Shown in pieces: positions 60 through 32,000 of a DNA stretch of 32,000 nucleotides (positions are counted from its first letter, which is position 1; each line of letters opens with the position of its first letter). The DNA is taken from the NCBI RefSeq assembly GCF_002803295.2, contig NZ_PGGB02000007.1, positions 57,414-89,413 on the forward strand, in the 5' to 3' direction. This DNA comes from Caedibacter taeniospiralis (lineage in GTDB: Bacteria; Pseudomonadota; Gammaproteobacteria; Francisellales; Francisellaceae). The notes beneath the pieces are model-generated. The model worked only from the letters and a program-made list of their open reading frames with translations, searched no databases and was not told the DNA's origin. Both the position numbers and the translations under genes were made by a program.

Positions 60-277
60 AGTAGGGCTCCTTACACGATCAATGCTATTTAGTTTCGTCT
101 CCTGACGTGCTAACAGATATAAGCCATAAAATTAAAATATGCTACTGTGATCATCGGAAAATTTAGCTTTCTGTCCGAACTCCAGTTATTTATTCTCAAC
201 AACCTTAAAAGTTGAACTGTTGCTTATTGCAGCTTAATGATAAAATGCCAATAGATTCAGTCATGCGAGGTGAAAAG

Positions 278-1255
278 ATGAGATTTTTAGATATTCGCAC
301 CGATTTTGCGTTCAAAAAAGTGTTCGGCAGCGAAGGCAGTAAACCGCGTCTTATTTCATTTTTAAATTCGGTGATTCAATTTGAGGGTGATGCTAAGATA
401 ACCGATTTAACGATCGTTGATCCTTATAACATCCCACTGCTAAAGGGAATGAAGGACAGCTTTGTAGATGTCAAAGCCGTACTTGATAATGGCTGCAAAG
501 TAATCATTGAAATGCAGGTTTTGTCACATGCGGGGCTGGAAAAAAGGATTCTCTATAACGCAGCAAAGAATTACTCGACACAGCTTTTGGAAGGGGAAAA
601 GTATCATTTGTTAAATCCCATTATTGCGCTGACCATCGTTGATTTTATGATGTTCGAAGACAATACCAGACTCATTTCAAACTTTAAGCTTCTGGAAAAG
701 GAAGAGTTTATCACCTACAACGATGATCTTGAGCTTATTTTTATTGAATTGCCAAAATTTACTAAAACATTGGAAGAGCTAAAAAACATCCAGGATCAAT
801 GGCTCTATTTTATTAAAAATGCAGGGAGTCTTGCGCATATTCCGCACAACCTGAGCACCGAGGTTATCTCGGCATTTGATATCAGCAATACCGCAGCTAT
901 GACTGAGGAAGAACTTGAAGTTCAGTACAAGAAAAAAGAGTTTATTATCGTGCAAAAGGAAATTGCCGAGGAGAGGGAAAAGGCTGAAAAAAAGGCAAGT
1001 CAGGCAGAGGAAAAAGCGAGAAAAGCAGAGGCTAAAGCAATAGAAGCAGAAAAAAAAGCAAGAAAAGCGGAGGAGAAAGCAAGAAAAGCGGAGGAGAAAG
1101 CAAGAAAAGAGCGTAAAGAAGGGGTAAAAGAAGGAAAGGCACAAGTACAAATTGACATTGCCAAACAACTTAAAGCAGCGGGTATGGGTAATGCGGAGAT
1201 TTCTGCCATGACTGGTTTGTCGGTTGAAGCGGTGAGCCAATTAAACCAAGACTGA
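278..1255 (+). CDS. Rpn-family PD-(D/E)XK nuclease / putative transposase with a Lys/Glu/Ala-rich repeat tail
   Basis: ATG at 278 follows GAGGTG at 266-271. The N-terminus MRFLDIRTDFAFKKVFG and the core FVDVKAV...KVIIEMQV are typical of this nuclease family. The ORF-track start at 212 is a TTG extension. Confidence 0.8.
   Translation: MRFLDIRTDFAFKKVFGSEGSKPRLISFLNSVIQFEGDAKITDLTIVDPYNIPLLKGMKDSFVDVKAVLDNGCKVIIEMQVLSHAGLEKRILYNAAKNYSTQLLEGEKYHLLNPIIALTIVDFMMFEDNTRLISNFKLLEKEEFITYNDDLELIFIELPKFTKTLEELKNIQDQWLYFIKNAGSLAHIPHNLSTEVISAFDISNTAAMTEEELEVQYKKKEFIIVQKEIAEEREKAEKKASQAEEKARKAEAKAIEAEKKARKAEEKARKAEEKARKERKEGVKEGKAQVQIDIAKQLKAAGMGNAEISAMTGLSVEAVSQLNQD
995..1120 (+). repeat. Six tandem 21-nt units (7 aa, ARKAEEK-like) inside the Rpn gene
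   Basis: Units start at 995, 1016, 1037, 1058, 1079 and 1100. Units 1058-1078 and 1079-1099 (gcaagaaaagcggaggagaaa) are identical and the others are degenerate. Confidence 0.9.
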
Positions 1256-2380: not shown

Positions 2381-5300
2381 TCAACTATACGCGCAACCGA
2401 CAGCAGCTTTGAAGCTCGCGTTATTATTGCTTAAACTTGACACGTCTGCAGAGCTCGTAAAGGTATAGTTTCCATCGACGTTAGCAACATCCAGGTCAAA
2501 GCTACAGCTTGAGTGTGCCGCGATTGTGGTGCCGCAGGTGTCATTACTGACGGTCAAATCACTACTTTGTCCTGAAGTATTAAGCGTCAGTCCCGTGACG
2601 TCAGTATCCCCTTTATTCTCCAAGGTAATGCTGTTGACAACCGCATCGGGGTTTAAAGCGGTGGTACGCTTGGGTAAATTCAAGGGGCTACTTGTTGTAT
2701 TCAAACCAGAGCCTGTGCTTGCAGCTGAATAGGCAAGATAGCCTAAAGAAGAGTCGACACTAAAGTCTACAGGTAAACTATCGGCAGAAAGGTTCTTGTG
2801 TGCTCTTAAAGTTAGCGCATAGCTTGCTCGCATGCTTGTTTCATTAGTTTGAATCCCAATAGTACAGCTTGCATTAGCGGCTACCGAAGTCCCTGTGAGA
2901 CAACTTACGCCTGAGCTCGGTGCAACAATGGTCACGTTTGCCGTATCGCAGGTATCCAGTCCATTTGCCACACAGCTGATCACATAATCAGAGGAGGTAG
3001 TTGAAGGCTCCCATGCGGTTTGGGTGTTGGTGTTGGTAATACTCACATCGGTAACCTGATTGCCTGTCGCAGGACGTCTGATGCTACCAGCATCACCGAT
3101 AGCGCCAGGCGTCACTGTCACCCCCGCGACATTAACCTGCATTTGTGTGTTGCCATCACAGTTGGCACAGTTTTCAGCATCCCCAAATGCCGCATAATGA
3201 TAAGCGCCATCGGTAACTGAATTATCAGCAGAAACCTCAAAGCTGCAACTGCTCCCTGAGGCAAGCGTTGTTGGTGAGCTTTGACTACCACAATTGTTGT
3301 TAGCTGTAGTTAGTTCAGCAGGTTCAGTAAGATAGAAGTTAGTAATATCGGTGTTTCCTGAGTTATTTACCGTGACCGTTTGTACTATAGGATTCGAGCC
3401 CTTACCAATATTGGCGATTTGCGGCGCAAAGCTCACAAAGCCCATATTATCGATTACATCAAAAATGACAGATTGGGCAGAAGCGAGGTTGGTTGCCTGG
3501 CGGATATTTAAAGCGTAACTGCCGACATTAGCAGAAGATTCTACCTGTAATCCTAAGGCGCATGTACCACCCGCGGAAACAACCCCACCTGCTAAGCAAT
3601 AAGCTTGTGACAATCCCGTACCAACCATGGAGATTCCTGTGGTATCAGTACCTGTCAGTTGATAATCCTCGACATTGGTAGATGGGTGCCAGTCGAAGCC
3701 TGAGTTATTGGTAATCAATACTTCGGTAATACTATTCCCACTCATAGGCACGGAAATGGCAGCTACTGGCGCAATTGAAAGATTGACACCTGTCACAATG
3801 ACGGGGATGGTATGAGAGACGGCTTGTGCACCCGAGGTTCCATCAGCACTGATGATGAAATTGCCAGCACCCATGCCATCAGGCGCATTCACGCTAAAGC
3901 TGCAACTGGCATCTGGGACTAAGGTGCTACCCGTACAGCTGTCGTCTGTTTTTGTCAGTGGCGATGGGATATTAACAGCCACGCCACTAATAGGCGTCTG
4001 CCCAATATTGTTAAGCGTGATGGCTTGACTGCCACCAATTTGGAGGCTGGTGCTTGCAATTTGGGTACTCCCATCACTAAACTGAAATTTCCCGACAGCA
4101 CCTTTGACAGAAAAGCTTTTAGTCTGCTGAGTCGTAAGATTTTGCGCAGGGGTAAGCGTTAGTGTGTAGTCACCAGGTGCTGTATTGATATTGGTTTCGA
4201 TCGCTAAATCACAGCTTGCCCCAGGGACGACAGGAGTACCAGATAAACAGCTACTGCCTAAGCTTGCGCCAAGCACTTCGATATTTTCTGCCGCTAGCGT
4301 TTGGTCCTCTGGGCTTATGAGATAATTTTCAGGGAGGTTGGAAGGTACCCAGTTGAATTTACCGGTATTACTAATGCTCACATGGATCACCTCTTGACCT
4401 GATTCAGGAACACGTAAGGCATCACTCGTACCAACAGTGCCAATGCTTATTTCGGCAGGAGCTACATTTACACTCGCCTGACTGATAAAGCTATTGCCAG
4501 CACTGTCGCTGTAATGAATGCTAAGCGACTTATTGCTTTGAGGTTGGGCGGTGGCATCGACGTGTAATATAATCGTGCAGCTATCGTTGGTCTCACCACT
4601 TGCAGCCAATTGATGACCATCGACACATGTGCCACCTAGCTGATGAACGTCACTAGGCAAATCAAGCTGAATGCCTGGGGTTTCAATAGTCAGTACAGTA
4701 TTGGCAAGATTCGTGAAGGTAAGCGTTTCAAAACCAGCAGGATCAGTTAAAGTGGCACTGCTATCTAGTTTTCCTGGTACGGCTGAAATCTCAATCGCTG
4801 GAGAAATTTTATTTCTTAAGTTCGCAGCAGTGACGCTTACTGTCTTAGAAATCGGGTTATTGGTCAGCTCAGCATAATGCGCTAAGATGGCATCACTGAT
4901 ATTACTGCCTCCTGGAAGATCAAAGCTTATGACCGCTGATTGTCCAGGAGATAAGTTTTCAGCACGACCGTCTTTACTGTAAAGAATGCTTCTTGAGCCA
5001 TCTAAATTGTGTGTAAGCACGGCACTTTTTAGATTTTGCATACTATCGGCCAGCCAATCAGGCACTCTGATGCTCACGTTATTTAAAGCAACAGTGTTTT
5101 CCGCTGGGTTTAACAGGGTGATCGTCGTCGTGCTGTCAGGAGCAATTGCAGTGACGTTTGTGACTTCAGCCAATGGTAAGGCAGTGTTTCCAGCACCAAC
5201 AAATTGGATTTTAACTGGTAGACTGATGGTTTGTGAGTTGGTTTTAACTTGAATATTACCATCCACCTTCGCACCATCGCTGTTACTTTCAACCAAAGCC

Positions 5301-10540: not shown

Positions 10541-11164
10541 TTATTCAAAAATACTCACATCCCCACTGCCAACGCGAAGCACGGTTGCGGGAGTTTCTGT
10601 CATATCGACAACGGTTGTTGGTTCATAGCCGCAATAGTCAGATTCCAAAATATAGTCAATCATCTGAGCACAAGGCTCATTGGCAAAGTCCTCACTATAT
10701 ACCAGCGCCGTGACCTCACCTGGCAAAATAAAGGTGGTACTTAACAATGGTTCGCCCAGCGCCTCACTAATCATGAGAGGCACAGGATGCTCTGGCACAC
10801 GGATGCCGATGGTTTTTTTGCTTTTGTTAAGCATGAGTCCTGGCACTTTGCTGGTTGCAGATAAAATAAAGGTATAGCCCCCTGGGGTGGCTCGCTTTAA
10901 CAAGCGATATGCCGTGTTATCCACCCTGGCATAATGGGCAATCTCTGATAAGTCACGACAGATCAGGGTAAAGTTATGCTTATCGTCCAGATCACGAATT
11001 TTCTTGATTTGCTGCAAGGGTTTTTTTAAACCCATTTTGCATCCCAAGGCATAACCTGAGTCTGTCGGATAGGCAATGACCTTACCCTCTTTTAATGCCT
11101 GGACGATTTCAGTTAATAGCGCCTTATTTGATGAGTATGGATTTATTTCAATATATTGGCTCAT
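10541..11164 (-). CDS. yciO: YciO / L-threonylcarbamoyladenylate-synthase-like (Sua5/YrdC/YciO family) protein
   Basis: VIAYPTDSGYALGCK...HNFTLICRDLSE...TIGIRVP is collinear with E. coli YciO. Confidence 0.85.
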   Translation of the reverse strand: MSQYIEINPYSSNKALLTEIVQALKEGKVIAYPTDSGYALGCKMGLKKPLQQIKKIRDLDDKHNFTLICRDLSEIAHYARVDNTAYRLLKRATPGGYTFILSATSKVPGLMLNKSKKTIGIRVPEHPVPLMISEALGEPLLSTTFILPGEVTALVYSEDFANEPCAQMIDYILESDYCGYEPTTVVDMTETPATVLRVGSGDVSIFE

Positions 11165-11234
11165 GGCGCATTCTTACTTTATACTGTTGCGAAAATTTGT
11201 GCCAAGTGTACCACCAACCCTCCCTGGAGAGAAC

Positions 11235-11771
11235 ATGAAGAAACTGCTTTTTGACTTTTTCCCAATTATCATCTTTTTTGTGATCTATAAAATGTATGAC
11301 ATCTATATGGCGACGGTTGCTTTGATTATCGCCACAGCGATTCAGTTGACCTACGAGGTAATCCGCTACAAAAAAGTTTCAATGATGCACGTCATTACGT
11401 TTGTACTTGTGCTTATCTTAGGTGGTGCAACAGTGTATTTCCATGATGAAGCACTAATTAAATGGAAGGTTACCATTGTAAATTGGCTATTTGGGGTGAT
11501 TTTTCTCTTCTCTACGTATCTTATGCAAAAACCGATTATTCAACGCTTAATGGAAGAAAATATCGAGCTTCCCCAAAAAATCTGGAAACGTTTAAATAAT
11601 ATCTGGGGCGTGTTTTTTCTGATCTTAGGAGCGATCAATCTTTTTGTGGCTTACACCTTCTCAACGGATATCTGGGTAGACTTCAAACTCTTTGGCATGC
11701 TTGGACTCACCCTGGTGTTTGTAATTGCCCAAGGTGTTTTTCTCTCTAAGCATATTGAGCATAAAAAATAA
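11235..11771 (+). CDS. yciB: Intracellular septation protein YciB/IspZ
   Basis: ATG at 11235 follows GGAGA. MKKLLFDFFPIIIFFVIYKMYDIYMAT is collinear with E. coli YciB. The ORF-track start at 11076 is a spurious extension that overlaps yciO. Confidence 0.9.
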   Translation: MKKLLFDFFPIIIFFVIYKMYDIYMATVALIIATAIQLTYEVIRYKKVSMMHVITFVLVLILGGATVYFHDEALIKWKVTIVNWLFGVIFLFSTYLMQKPIIQRLMEENIELPQKIWKRLNNIWGVFFLILGAINLFVAYTFSTDIWVDFKLFGMLGLTLVFVIAQGVFLSKHIEHKK

Positions 11772-16965: not shown

Positions 16966-17100
16966 GTGATTAAGATTCAAGATTTGCTAGATGAACAGTA
17001 ATGTTATGAAAAGGTGCGCGCATTACGTTGGGCAGATGGAGTGAGCTGTCCACATTGTATGGCGTCATCAGAAGAAATTGTAAAGAGAAGAAAAATTTAA
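16966..17100 (+). pseudogene. IS1595-family transposase, N-terminal zinc-ribbon fragment with an in-frame TAA
   Basis: VIKIQDLLDEQ*CYEKVRALRWADGVSCPHCMASSEEIVKRRKI*. The stop at 16999-17001 sits where this family normally has Lys (KCYEK). The fragment ends at 17098-17100. Confidence 0.7.
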
Positions 17101-17233
17101 ATGCGTGAGAATTACGTTTTAAACAGAAATAAGCAATTAGTTAAAGACTATAAAACTGTCGGTTCCACATTAGTAGCTAGTCTCAAAGTAATTAATAATA
17201 CAACAAGTATTAAAGTATAACAAATGAAAATAA

Positions 17234-17530
17234 ATAGGGTGCCTCGGGCCTCATGATAGATTTTGTATATCCATACACAAAATCGAATCGGCTATCCTCG
17301 GCGGTATAAATTTTGCCCGGGCCGCCCGCCTCAACGGTGCTTGTCCTCACAAATTCGCTACGCTCATTCCGAACAGACAACACGTTTCCGATTCTACTCT
17401 ACGCCTTGGGTAAAAGCTTTTTCACAGACTTCGCTCTGGCGCCTTCGGCACGTCGCTTGCTGATCAACAGCGCAAGGCTACCCGGGTCTACTCGCCCTCG
17501 CGTTCCGCTATCCATGGCTCGCAGCGATTG
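17234..17530 (+). mobile_element. GC-rich ORF-less repeat element, copy A, lying inside the IS1595 remnant
   Basis: The first 55 nt are identical to 31946-32000. A subterminal hairpin lies at 17259-17284 (GATTTTGT...ACAAAATC). GC-rich runs such as cccgggccgcccgcctc and gcgccttcggc occur in an AT-rich context. The right boundary is approximate. No convincing ORF is present. Confidence 0.6.
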
Positions 17531-17641
17531 AAGAAGTAATAATATTCAACGAACATAAAACTTGCAAATTGATATATCTATCACAAAACGATTGAACTCT
17601 GAGAAGGAATTGCTGAAATCAGCGAGTTGGTTTTACTTAAA

Positions 17642-17951
17642 GGTGATAATGTATGCGATGAAGTGTACGTTGTTGCCGGACACAAAAGGTCAGCCAGCTC
17701 AGGTTAAAAAAGGTCGCAAAGGCAGGAGAAACCGATTGAAAGGAGCAAGAGGTCGAGGCACTTTGGAGAAAGAAAAGCCTCCTATATTTGGGATGATTCA
17801 ACGTGGAGGAGAAGTGGTTATTCAGATGCCTCCTGATGTCAAACAAAAGACGATTAAACCGCATATTGAAGCGTGCATACAGCCTGGTAGCAAGGTATAT
17901 ACAGACGAGTATGCAATCTATTCCAATTTAACGAGTTATTGTCAAATTTAG
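17642..17951 (+). pseudogene. IS1595-family transposase, DDE-domain fragment (frameshifted and 3'-truncated)
   Basis: GDNVCDEVYVVAGHK is followed by a +1 shift in the A-run near 17683-17687. The sequence then reads GQPAQVKKGRKGRRNRLKGARGRGTLEKEKPPIFGMIQRGGEVVIQM...VYTDEYAIYSNL. It loses similarity at about 17930. Confidence 0.75.
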
Positions 17952-27659: not shown

Positions 27660-27727
27660 TTTTTCATTTTCCTCTCTTATGTGCAGAAAGTTTAGTCATT
27701 AAAGTAATGCCATTAATATCTTAAATC

Positions 27728-27991
27728 AATGGCAACTACCTTAAAAGCTTAACTACCCCGCCTCGCAGGCCTGACCACTTTAAAGTGGTCAGGCAGGCTC
27801 GGCACCCCTTCACTAGTGAAGGGGAATTTTGGAAGCCATCGTAGCTTAATTCCCCTTCGTTAGCGAAGGGGGTGAAAAGCGCCCGAAAGAAGCAAACAGT
27901 TTTGCTTCTTTAGCTTTGAACGCCACAAGCTCTGCGCGTGAGGCTGACGGGGTAGTCTTGACACAGATAAATCATTAAGGTAGTTGCCATT
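27728..27991. ncRNA. 264-nt GC-rich multi-hairpin element closed by a 17-bp perfect inverted repeat (structured RNA or MITE; class unknown)
   Basis: Outer helix: 27728-27744 with 27975-27991. Second helix: 27752-27764 with 27940-27956, with a 4-nt bulge. Internal hairpins lie at 27769-27794, 27805-27824, 27852-27871 and 27886-27911. There is no ORF, and the strand is undetermined. Confidence 0.5.
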
Positions 27992-31916: not shown

Positions 31917-31947
31917 GATTTTTGATTTTTGATTTTTGATTTTTGAT
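31917..31947. repeat. Heptanucleotide microsatellite (GATTTTT)x4 plus a partial unit
   Basis: Units start at 31917, 31924, 31931 and 31938, followed by GAT at 31945-31947. The repeat abuts the left end of GC-rich repeat copy B. Confidence 0.9.
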
Positions 31948-32000
31948 AGGGTGCCTCGGGCCTCATGATAGATTTTGTATATCCATACACAAAATCGAAT
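31946..32000 (+). mobile_element. GC-rich repeat element, copy B (left end only, continues beyond the window)
   Basis: All 55 visible nt are identical to 17234-17288. Confidence 0.6.

What the first reader, a model, noticed from the sequence alone, without database searches (positions are those of the whole stretch)
27728..27991. Orphan 264-nt GC-rich element with two nested long-range helices and four internal hairpins
This element fills the intergenic space between the rarA stop (27994) and the SDR start (27659). A 17-bp perfect inverted repeat (AATGGCAACTACCTTAA) closes the element. A second helix (ACTACCCCG+CCTC with GAGG+CGGGGTAGT) nests inside it. The interior holds a 26-nt palindrome (GCCTGACCACTTTAAAGTGGTCAGGC). 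It also holds two near-twin hairpins, CCCCTTC-N6-GAAGGGG and CCCCTTCG-TTAG-CGAAGGGG, plus an 11-bp hairpin at 27886-27911. I could not match it to tmRNA, 6S, RNase P, SRP or common riboswitch consensus motifs from memory. A multi-branch architecture in a GC-rich patch of an AT-rich genome is typical of a functional structured RNA. A nonautonomous transposable element or a recombination site at the island boundary is also possible.
Basis: seen in the sequence. Interest (0 to 1): 0.7.

Follow-up and report, generated by a model that had tools for sequence, protein, structure and literature searches.

The report
Palindromic mobile repeat, not orphan RNA
The 264-base structured patch after rarA is one copy of a repeated, apparently mobile, palindromic DNA element of Caedibacter taeniospiralis, and its two 50-base building blocks also bracket small DUF559 endonuclease genes in distant bacteria, which points to a possible new repeat-plus-nuclease partnership.

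Summary
The element is not an orphan, and the evidence argues against a dedicated RNA gene.

- **Host:** Caedibacter taeniospiralis.
- **Anatomy:** two inverted ~50-nt units, each X (ACTACCCCG), a linker hairpin, H (CCCCTTC-loop-GAAGGGG) and AATT. The units are joined tail to tail. Each carries an extra hairpin module in its linker, and a 17-bp outer inverted repeat wraps the whole.
- **Other copies:** Caedibacter-type contigs hold related copies at other loci. Two carry 8-bp flanking direct repeats, and two are absent from another strain.
- **DUF559 link:** in 6 of 6 close DUF559 endonuclease loci examined, the same unit brackets the gene in inverted orientation. These loci come from Caedibacter, Facilibium, another Francisellaceae lineage, a Desulfuromonadales MAG and a viral contig.
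- **Phage contigs:** units also occur there, twice inside open reading frames that read through them.
- **Pairing:** hairpins are kept by double-sided changes with no G·U intermediates, and both strands fold equally well. Rfam gives no match.

Best reading: a non-autonomous REPIN/MITE-like repeat. A DUF559 nuclease is a candidate partner, but that link is inferred, not shown.

The parts
27728..27744 (.). Outer inverted repeat, left arm: AATGGCA-ACTACC-TTAA.
   Evidence: (I3) shows 100% complementarity with 27975-27991. Copies B and C carry related outer arms, AATGGYACTAAGTTAA. In L231, AATGGCA lies directly before X.
27752..27828 (+). Right-arm-type unit: X (27752-60), a 44-nt linker (27761-27804), H1 hairpin (27805-24) and AATT (27825-28).
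   Evidence: Found by the unit regex and the nhmmer unit profile, E = 5e-9. The ends of the linker match the right arm of the Facilibium DUF559 locus, ACTACCCCGCCTCGCAGGCTCGGCACCCCTTC.
27770..27792 (.). P hairpin module (CCTGACCACTTTAAAGTGGTCAG) inserted in the linker and flanked by the 5-nt direct repeat GCAGG (27765-69 and 27793-97).
   Evidence: Sequence, compared with P-less arms in L219. L188 has the same arrangement with GCAAG repeats. The same stem occurs in more than 118 metagenome loci.
27829..27847 (.). Central spacer between the two AATT ends. It is 19 nt here and 49 nt in other strains.
   Evidence: Alignment A1 shows a 30-nt indel in L084 and L085.
27848..27956 (-). Left-arm-type unit, read on the minus strand: X (27956-48), a 76-nt linker (27947-27872), H2 hairpin (27871-52) and AATT (27851-48).
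   Evidence: The linker starts TCAGCCT, as in the left arms of the DUF559 loci L138, L219, L226 and L232. The nhmmer hit has E = 4.7e-5. Copy B has the same long linker.
27886..27911 (.). 11-bp hairpin inside the ~66-nt module inserted in the left-arm-type linker.
   Evidence: I6. The module is present in copy B (L137 14212-14320) and absent from copies C and D.
27975..27991 (.). Outer inverted repeat, right arm. It ends 2 nt before the rarA stop codon.
   Evidence: I3.
27696..27714 (-). Degenerate third copy of the outer terminus (AATGGCATTACTTTAATGA), 13 nt outside the element. It is probably the remnant of an adjacent copy.
   Evidence: (D3, I9).

Best explanation
The element is a non-autonomous, palindromic, repeated DNA element. 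It is built like a REPIN, that is, two REP-like units in inverted orientation that can fold back on each other.

**The unit.** Each unit is about 50 nt and reads X (ACTACCCCG), a short linker hairpin, H (CCCCTTC-loop-GAAGGGG), then AATT.

**This copy.**
- The two units are joined by their AATT ends.
- Secondary hairpin modules have been inserted into both linkers: the 23-nt P hairpin, and a ~66-nt module carrying the 11-bp hairpin.
- An outer 17-bp inverted repeat surrounds the pair.

**What is shown.**
- The modular anatomy.
- Other copies of the family in Caedibacter taeniospiralis-type genomes.
- Presence/absence differences between strains.
- 8-bp flanking duplications at two copies.
- Selection for hairpin complementarity at the DNA level.
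- The same unit bracketing DUF559 (Vsr-like PD-(D/E)XK endonuclease) genes across phyla.

**What is inferred.**
- The element spreads, or spread, as DNA, mobilised in trans. The DUF559 nuclease is the best candidate partner, by analogy with RAYT and REP. I give that specific link about 35-40%.
- At this locus the copy is fixed in five sampled strains. It is most likely a neutral passenger that may incidentally end or stabilise the ppx-rarA transcript.
- It is not a dedicated RNA gene.
For: **Host.** RarA is 100% identical to the Caedibacter taeniospiralis protein. The same element lies at the same site in four other assemblies, with a 30-nt indel and a few substitutions.

**Other copies.**
- L137 14184-14435 is 91% identical over 208 nt.
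- Further copies are L107 4695-4889, L137 6358-6579, L137 ~3890-3975, L138 and L188.
- L137 is Caedibacter-type. Its 900-aa protein is 98% identical to WP_395946616.1.

**Mobility.**
- Two L137 copies are absent from L217 and one of them also from L218.
- 8-bp direct repeats flank two copies: TAGCTACT at copy B and AGGGTATA at copy C.
- Logan contigs L086 and L087 stop exactly 30 nt into the sequence shared with copy B. L261 stops inside copy C.

**Unit homology.** Both halves of the window element match the unit. The background is 2 regex hits in 1.38 Mb of unrelated loci, and one of those is a true doublet.

**DUF559 link.**
- Units bracket the gene in L138, L188, L219 (27-nt arms, 100% complementary), L226, L231 and L232.
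- More distant DUF559 genes are bracketed by other hairpin repeats.
- C. taeniospiralis itself encodes such a DUF559.
- Candidate nuclease-motif residues (my reading of the VDF and ExD segments) are among the invariant columns in 20 homologs.

**Covariation.** 93.5% of cells are paired against 82.4% in shuffles (0 of 500 reach it). There are 18 double-sided changes and 0 one-sided changes.
Against: - The window copy has no recognisable target-site duplication, and no unoccupied rarA-SDR site was found in any strain. Mobility of this particular copy is therefore not shown.
- The two sites where L137 carries a copy and L217 does not are replacements of 19-39 nt, not clean insertions.
- The extra Caedibacter loci were found through the P hairpin, so apparent copy density is biased. 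The only unbiased stretches show 1 doublet in 32 kb (window) and none in 14 kb (L217).
- The window has only one copy and no DUF559 gene.
- The cognate T-type DUF559 (L138) was seen only in one metagenome assembly and in Facilibium.
- No DUF559 protein is known to move DNA. 23 of 24 viral contigs with units have no DUF559 nearby.
- The 8-bp duplications and outer inverted repeats would also fit mobilisation by an ordinary DDE transposase.
- In phage contig L274 the units lie on the gene strand after stop codons. That is what an RNA-level signal would look like.
Confidence: 0.8

Rival explanations
1. It is a classical MITE moved by a DDE transposase. The outer AATGGCA... inverted repeats are the transposase-binding ends and produce 8-bp target duplications. 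The inner unit doublet is passenger or ancestral sequence, and the DUF559 association is incidental. For example, DUF559 genes could themselves be cargo or preferred neighbours.
For: - Copies B and C have outer inverted repeats and 8-bp direct repeats.
- An IS1595-family transposase remnant lies in the window. From my own recollection, not checked here, that family makes 8-bp duplications.
- Outer arms differ between sub-families, as expected if the doublet was captured more than once.
Against: - No transposase gene with these ends was found.
- The exact 17-mer of the window terminus returned only single-site matches across 83 loci in the scan of 185,579 species genomes, and blastn against those loci found no further part of the element. 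That scan did not return the source genome either.
- Minimal doublets in phage contigs lack the outer repeat.
- The unit-DUF559 architecture is conserved across phyla with compensatory changes. An incidental association does not explain that.
Confidence: 0.3
2. It is a structured non-coding or cis-regulatory RNA, transcribed from the minus strand as the rarA 3' UTR or the SDR leader.
For: - Very stable folds.
- Hairpins are kept by covariation.
- Two substitutions in L085 give G·U on the minus strand only.
- Units in phage L274 lie on the coding strand after stop codons.
Against: - No Rfam match.
- Both strands fold equally well with few G·U pairs.
- There are no one-sided changes among 138 cells.
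- Copies occur in unrelated contexts, are absent from some strains, and sit inside open reading frames that read through them.
- Neither a promoter-like site on the minus strand nor a terminator-like site was called inside the element.
- Relatives with ppx-rarA have no such sequence.
Confidence: 0.05
3. It is a host-level signal made from a repeat, such as a transcription terminator, an insulator or an mRNA 3' stabiliser between ppx-rarA and the accessory gene island. REP and BIME elements do this in enterobacteria.
For: - It starts 2 nt after the rarA stop codon.
- Other copies also abut stop codons: L107 copy C, the L274 tandem units, and DUF559 stops that overlap X.
- It is fixed in five strains.
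- REPs are hypothesised to act in termination and mRNA stabilisation (abstract of PMC3733652).
Against: - It was not tested here.
- No T-run follows the hairpins.
- Copies also lie upstream of genes and inside ORFs.
- This reading is compatible with, and secondary to, the mobile-repeat origin.
Confidence: 0.15
4. It is an invertible promoter segment or a site-specific recombination site that marks the island boundary.
For: - Perfect 17-bp inverted repeats lie 230 nt apart, directly upstream of an accessory gene cluster.
- Synteny breaks right after rarA in relatives.
Against: - No recombinase gene lies in the 32-kb window.
- All three full-length sequences, and the two partial ones as far as they reach, have the same orientation.
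- The same family occurs at non-island sites.
- Contig breaks are at repeat entry points, not at the inverted repeat.
Confidence: 0.03

Closest known systems
REPINs and REP/RAYT systems (Bertels & Rainey 2011, PMC3116915; PMC3337134)
   Same: - Short palindromic units occur as inverted doublets that form a long hairpin.
- Many non-autonomous copies coexist with a small gene that is itself bracketed by inverted copies of the unit.
- Different gene sub-families go with different cognate hairpins.
- Copies lie mostly between genes, next to stop codons.
   Different: - The bracketed gene is a DUF559 Vsr-like PD-(D/E)XK endonuclease, not a Y1/HUH tyrosine transposase.
- GTAG lies at the end of the unit far from the hairpins and pairs with the partner unit. 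In REPs it is an unpaired tag at one end of the hairpin (PMC3733652).
- The units are longer, with two hairpins.
- Copy number in the sampled Caedibacter sequence is low.
Bacterial MITEs, for example Correia/NEMIS and ERIC (own knowledge)
   Same: - Size under 300 bp.
- Terminal inverted repeats.
- No coding capacity.
- Multiple copies.
- Flanking direct repeats at some copies.
- Internal insertions that create size variants.
   Different: - No DDE-transposase partner with matching ends was found.
- The ends differ between copies while the inner core is conserved.
- The window copy has no target duplication.
Mosaic repeat arrays: BIMEs of enterobacteria and NIMEs of Neisseria (own knowledge)
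   Same: The architecture is modular. Small palindromic modules (X, linker hairpin, H, P, the 66-nt module and the outer arms) are combined in alternating orientations.
   Different: I recognised no sequence resemblance, but none was tested with tools. The modules here are shared with a protein-coding unit.
Rickettsia palindromic elements and REP inserts inside genes (PMC3733652; own knowledge)
   Same: Family members occur inside open reading frames that read through them: L092 663-760, and L274 within ORF 11044-11730.
   Different: The window copy is intergenic. Similarity to RPE sequences was not tested with tools.
Free-standing and intron-encoded Vsr-like homing endonucleases, listed for the VSR/DUF559/DUF2726 clade in PMC3424549
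   Same: A small, highly conserved nuclease gene of the Vsr/DUF559 clade, patchily distributed across phyla, sits in a compact unit whose neighbouring genes differ from one taxon to the next.
   Different: No intron or intein context. No cleavage site or homing has been demonstrated. The gene is bracketed by hairpin repeats that also exist on their own.

Membership tests
MITE | Small (under ~500 bp), non-coding | tested here: met
   The element is 264 nt. Only spurious ORFs of 45 aa or less cross it.
MITE | Terminal inverted repeats | tested here: met
   A 17-bp perfect inverted repeat. Copies B and C have related ends.
MITE | Target-site duplication | tested here: inconclusive
   None at the window copy. 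Copies B (TAGCTACT) and C (AGGGTATA) have 8-bp direct repeats.
MITE | Multiple copies, with insertion polymorphism | tested here: met
   for copies. for copies absent from another strain. for contig breaks inside copies.
MITE | An autonomous IS with the same ends that encodes a transposase | tested here: not met
   No such IS is in the window or the fetched loci. The exact 17-mer terminus returned only single-site matches in the species-genome scan, and none extended into the rest of the element. The gene-bearing relative carries DUF559 and shares the inner units, not the outer ends.
REPIN / REP-RAYT | Short palindromic unit repeated in the genome | tested here: met
   Unit table and profile.
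REPIN / REP-RAYT | [quoted passage not shown] | tested here: met
   Units at 27752-27828 (+) and 27956-27848 (-) with a 19-nt spacer.
REPIN / REP-RAYT | Cognate RAYT (Y1 transposase, PF01797) bracketed by the units | tested here: not met
   The bracketed gene is DUF559, PF04480. The one Y1_Tnp gene seen, in L090, has no units nearby.
REPIN / REP-RAYT | Unpaired GTAG or CGTC tag at one end of the hairpin | tested here: not met
   GTAG is inside CGGGGTAGT, 11-17 nt from the hairpins, and it pairs with X of the partner unit.
Any Rfam RNA family | Covariance-model score at or above the gathering threshold | tested here: not met
   No match in the window or in five related loci. The permissive scan gave only noise.
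Invertible promoter (inverton) | Both orientations present, and a site-specific recombinase | tested here: not met
   All sampled sequences have the same orientation. No recombinase lies in the window.
Candidate DUF559-associated repeat system | Unit brackets a DUF559 gene in inverted orientation | tested here: met
   For the family: 6 of 6 close DUF559 loci. This holds for the family, not at the window locus, where no DUF559 gene is present.
Candidate DUF559-associated repeat system | DUF559 binds, cuts or mobilises the unit | not testable with these tools
   This needs biochemistry or genetics.

The most novel reading that the evidence does not exclude
The ~50-nt unit is the cognate repeat of an undescribed partnership analogous to REP and RAYT. 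In it a DUF559 (Vsr-like PD-(D/E)XK) endonuclease, rather than a tyrosine transposase, is the gene bracketed by the repeats and the enzyme that spreads or maintains them. The system would span Gammaproteobacteria, Desulfobacterota and phages, with T-type and C-type sub-families. More distant DUF559 clades would pair with their own hairpins. This would give the large DUF559 family a function.
Probability: 0.35. Interest if true: 0.75.

Novelty: new variant of a known kind. Interest (0 to 1): 0.55.

Why it matters
For this window, the result removes a candidate RNA gene. It explains the patch as a repeated palindromic element sitting at a synteny break.

More broadly, small palindromic repeats are abundant in bacteria, but only the REP/RAYT pairing links such repeats to a specific enzyme. 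Here a conserved architecture appears across phyla: hairpin unit, DUF559 gene, inverted hairpin unit. Gene-less doublets and single units are scattered in genomes and phages. This would be a second such pairing, with an unrelated nuclease fold.

It would also give a testable role to DUF559, a very common family of unknown function. The repeats break short-read assemblies as well, and they may drive rearrangements.

Tried and rejected
**Known RNA families.** Rfam gave no match at gathering thresholds (window and five related loci) and only noise in the permissive scan. No tRNA or tmRNA was found.

**Coding capacity.** Only spurious ORFs of 45 aa or less cross the element.

**Terminus scans.**
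- The exact 17-mer terminus returned 83 single-site matches in 185,579 species genomes, and blastn found no further part of the element in any of them.
- The source genome itself was not returned, so this scan says nothing about copy number there.
- The same 17-mer, the P hairpin and H+AATT in viral contigs gave single-site matches or nothing, except L092, which proved to be a real doublet.

**Similarity searches.** BLAST of the element against plasmids and phages found no match.

**Hypotheses considered and dropped.**
- Integron attC: the neighbouring genes overlap one another and have no cassette spacing.
- Retron msr/msd: no reverse transcriptase is present.
- Inverton: single orientation and no recombinase.
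- Xer/dif or Tn7-like attachment site: no matching ends.

**Unoccupied site at rarA.**
- All Caedibacter-type assemblies carry the element.
- Relatives (Cysteiniphilum, JAMBMW, Facilibium) have different downstream genes, so they are not informative as empty sites.
- A look-up meant to give an unoccupied site for copy C found the copy present.

**P hairpin in other metagenomes.** The stem CCTGACCAC-N6-GTGGTCAGG occurs in more than 118 loci from a few metagenomes. Those loci have neither units nor DUF559. I treat them as a separate, unexplained hairpin family.

**Literature.** I found no description of these repeats in the two Caedibacter genome papers (only PMC7297999 was searched term by term), nor any paper linking DUF559 to repeats.

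Full report
**1. The observation**

- A perfect 17-bp inverted repeat, 27728-27744 with 27975-27991.
- A nested 9-bp helix, ACTACCCCG with CGGGGTAGT (27752-60 with 27948-56), extended by CCTC/GAGG.
- A 26-nt palindrome at 27769-27794.
- Two twin hairpins at 27805-24 and 27852-71. They are also complementary to each other over 24 nt.
- An 11-bp hairpin at 27886-27911.

Both strands fold far better than shuffles, with z = -10.5 and -12.1. The features are real and not due to chance.

**2. What it is not**

- Rfam has no match at gathering thresholds and only noise in a permissive scan.
- No tRNA or tmRNA is present.
- There is no credible ORF.
- There is no similarity to plasmids or phages.
- The predicted helices are almost purely Watson-Crick on both strands: 2 G·U among 96 pairs and 7 among 99. 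This is the signature of DNA palindromy rather than of an RNA evolved on one strand.

**3. Host and locus**

RarA is 100% identical to the Caedibacter taeniospiralis protein. The next relatives are Cysteiniphilum (86%) and Facilibium (69%).

Four other Caedibacter-type assemblies carry the element at the same place.
- Two full-length versions are 294 nt, with 30 extra nt in the central spacer and several substitutions.
- Two Logan short-read contigs end inside it.

Relatives keep ppx-rarA but have other genes and short unrelated spacers downstream. The element therefore sits at a synteny break. Next to it is an accessory cluster of GNAT acetyltransferases, a CopG antitoxin, DUF1016/YhcG, an APH fragment, an AraC/GyrI regulator and an IS1595-family remnant.

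**4. It is not an orphan**

The exact 17-mer terminus gave only single-site matches in the species-genome collection, and blastn found no more of the element at any of them. That collection did not return the source genome either.

A metagenome scan with the palindrome stem returned more than 118 loci. Among them were further contigs of the same assembly (JACCDZ01) that carries the rarA locus. blastn showed that these hold further copies of the element's interior.
- **Copy B:** L137 14184-14435, 91% identical over 208 nt, with its own outer repeat AATGGTACTAAGTTAA / TTAACTTAGTGCCATT.
- **Copy C:** L107 4695-4889, lacking the 11-bp-hairpin module.
- **Copy D:** L137 6358-6579, a symmetrical version with different outer arms.
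- **Others:** a mini copy at L137 ~3890-3975, and several in L138 and L188.

These contigs are Caedibacter-type.
- The 900-aa protein of L137 is 98% identical to a named C. taeniospiralis protein.
- The DUF559 protein of L188 is 94% identical to another named C. taeniospiralis protein.

**5. Evidence for mobility**

- The orthologous region of another strain (L217) lacks copy D and the mini copy, and L218 also lacks copy D. The differences are replacements of 19-39 nt rather than clean insertions.
- Copies B and C are flanked by 8-bp direct repeats, TAGCTACT and AGGGTATA. In both there are 5 extra nt on the same side of the element.
- L086 and L087 end exactly 30 nt into the stretch they share with copy B, allowing for each strain's own substitutions. 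That is k-1 if these contigs were assembled with k = 31, and it is where such a contig stops on entering a repeat. L261 ends inside copy C.
- The window copy itself has no target duplication. It has a degenerate extra terminus 13 nt away (27696-27714), which suggests an older, rearranged site.

**6. Anatomy**

Comparing copies reveals a ~50-nt unit: X (ACYACCCCG), a linker that forms a small hairpin (11-17 nt), H (CCCCTYC-loop-GRAGGGG), then AATT.

The window element is two such units in inverted orientation, joined by their AATT ends.
- **27752-27828 (+).** Its linker is expanded to 44 nt by the P hairpin. P sits between 5-nt direct repeats GCAGG (27765-69 and 27793-97).
- **27956-27848 (-).** Its linker is expanded to 76 nt by a module that holds the 11-bp hairpin.

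The outer repeat begins AATGGCA-ACTACC. It resembles AATGGCA plus a truncated X, and AATGGCA directly precedes X in a distant relative.

A unit profile finds only these two units in the 32-kb window. It finds none at the rarA loci of relatives. The unit pattern hits unrelated DNA about once per 1.4 Mb.

**7. The DUF559 link**

In L138 and L188 a small ORF lies between element ends. Both ORFs are DUF559, PF04480 (E = 1e-25 and 2e-28), and they are 63% identical to each other.

In the gene's orientation the architecture has four parts.
1. A left arm: AATT, H, an ~18-nt linker, then CGGGGTAGT.
2. A short spacer.
3. The DUF559 ORF.
4. A right arm: ACTACCCCG, linker, H, then AATT.

The stop codon overlaps or abuts X.

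The same architecture recurs in four other taxa or sources.
- Facilibium subflavum: 84% protein identity, with 27-nt arms that are 100% complementary.
- A marine Francisellaceae lineage, where X and H lie inside the 3' end of the ORF.
- A Desulfuromonadales MAG: 63% protein identity, with ACCACCCCG and CCCCTCC/GGAGGGG variants and a full doublet upstream.
- A viral contig (L232/L284).

That is 6 of 6 close homologs examined. More distant DUF559 genes are bracketed by other GC-rich hairpin repeats (L235, L236, L237). Two (L233, L234) show nothing clear.

On the + strand the window element reads right arm, spacer, left arm. This is the sequence that lies between two DUF559 units, not an internal deletion of one unit.

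DUF559 proteins are about 60-65% identical across phyla. Residues I read as the nuclease motif (the VDF and ExD segments) fall in invariant columns. The only solved relative found is 3HRL. PMC3424549 groups VSR, DUF559 and DUF2726 in one PD-(D/E)XK clade that includes a homing endonuclease.

**8. Wider spread**

A unit pattern finds 24 viral contigs of 34-67% GC.
- There are two sub-families, in which X and H change together: ACTACCCCG with CCCCTTC, and ACCACCCCG with CCCCTCC.
- Most have no DUF559 nearby.
- L092 has a minimal 100-nt doublet inside a 229-aa ORF that reads through it.
- L274 has seven units on the coding strand. They include a tandem pair just after a stop codon and a doublet inside an ORF.

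**9. Covariation**

On 12 units from six sources, 93.5% of cells pair, against 82.4% in shuffles (0 of 500 shuffles reach that).
- There are 18 double-sided changes and no one-sided change.
- Sliding the partner columns drops pairing to 46-62%.

Hairpins are therefore selected, and in a way that does not pass through G·U intermediates. That fits DNA hairpins or cruciforms, or a symmetric protein site, better than RNA.

**10. Interpretation**

The element is a member of a repeated, modular, palindromic DNA family. It is closest in logic to REPINs and, in its outer layer, to MITEs. I am confident of that (about 0.8).

How it moves is inferred. The conserved bracketing of DUF559 genes is the pattern that identified RAYTs as the REP partner (PMC3116915, PMC3337134), so DUF559 is my leading candidate at about 0.35-0.4. 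The main rival is a DDE transposase acting on the outer repeats and making 8-bp duplications.

At this locus the copy is fixed and probably neutral. A terminator or stabiliser effect on ppx-rarA is possible but untested.

**11. Caveats**

- The extra Caedibacter loci come from metagenome contigs found through the P hairpin, so copy density is biased.
- The copy number in the window's own genome is unknown.
- No clean unoccupied site or target duplication exists for this copy.
- The DUF559 sample is about 11 loci.
- I found no prior description, but the literature tool covers only open-access texts.

Noticed in passing
window 17091-17570 and 31946-32000: A ~450-nt insert, AT-rich then GC-rich, interrupts an IS1595-family transposase remnant. 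The N-terminal zinc-ribbon coding is at ~17000-17090 and the DDE part at 17562-17951. 55 nt of the insert (17234-17288) recur 100% identical at the very end of the window (31946-32000), so it is a second repeat family. Rfam gives no match, and there is no match in any fetched locus.
   Followed up: partly
L099-L216 (metagenome contigs), e.g. L124, L151, L134: The 10-bp stem CCTGACCACT-N4-AGTGGTCAGG, which is the P module of the window element, occurs in more than 118 loci. They are concentrated in a few JGI metagenomes (Ga0099364, Ga0123356, Ga0268262, JGI24698J34947, Ga0209755). It often sits at the centre of larger nested palindromes or in a terminator-like context (gaaaggcg-P-cttcttttttt). 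These loci have neither units nor DUF559. It may be an independent miniature hairpin repeat.
   Followed up: partly
window 27765-27797; L188 4761-4793: P is flanked by a 5-nt direct repeat that matches the local linker: GCAGG in the window and GCAAG in L188. P-less arms read CCTCGCAGGCTCGGCA or CCTCGCAAGCTCGACA. It looks as if a 23-nt hairpin inserted with a 5-bp duplication, independently in two sub-families.
   Followed up: partly
L092 663-760; L274 11575-11717: Unit doublets lie inside open reading frames of phage-like contigs, and the frames read through them (a 229-aa ORF and a 228-aa ORF). This recalls Rickettsia palindromic elements and REP inserts in genes.
   Followed up: partly
L231 1080-1199: Upstream of the Desulfuromonadales DUF559 gene the left arm is partly duplicated in tandem, 2-3 times: TTTGGAGGGGTGGCAGGCGAAGCCTGACGGGGTGGTGCC.
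   Followed up: no
L226 1851-1908: In the marine Francisellaceae lineage the DUF559 ORF reads through X and H of the right arm and stops just after AATT. The last ~19 residues are therefore encoded by the repeat.
   Followed up: no
viral contigs L262-L284: Position 3 of X (T or C) and position 6 of the H stem (T or C, with its partner A or G) change together in almost all units. This gives T-type and C-type sub-families, with one mixed exception (L269). It may be plain ancestry or recognition by matching nucleases.
   Followed up: no
L090 2413-2850: Facilibium has a Y1_Tnp gene (IS200/RAYT-type, PF01797) just upstream of ppx. No X or H motifs occur anywhere in that 8.5-kb locus.
   Followed up: partly
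window 212-1255; 17.5-27.7 kb: A PD-(D/E)XK 'transposase' (PDDEXK_2, Rpn-like) lies at 212-1255. An accessory cluster lies between RNase T and rarA. It holds four GNAT acetyltransferase genes, a CopG antitoxin pair, DUF1016/YhcG, an APH fragment and an AraC/GyrI regulator. DUF1016 and APH also follow rarA in Facilibium.
   Followed up: no
L138 1500-1620: A solitary H hairpin sits at the centre of a longer palindrome, GGGCGCATTCCAGATGTGTGGGTGT-AATT-H-AATT-ACACCCAC..CACAAATTTGGAATGTGCC. The same GGCGYATTCCAARTYTGTGGG motif precedes the left arm of the DUF559 loci in L138 and L219, so the arms probably extend further out than the 50-nt unit.
   Followed up: no
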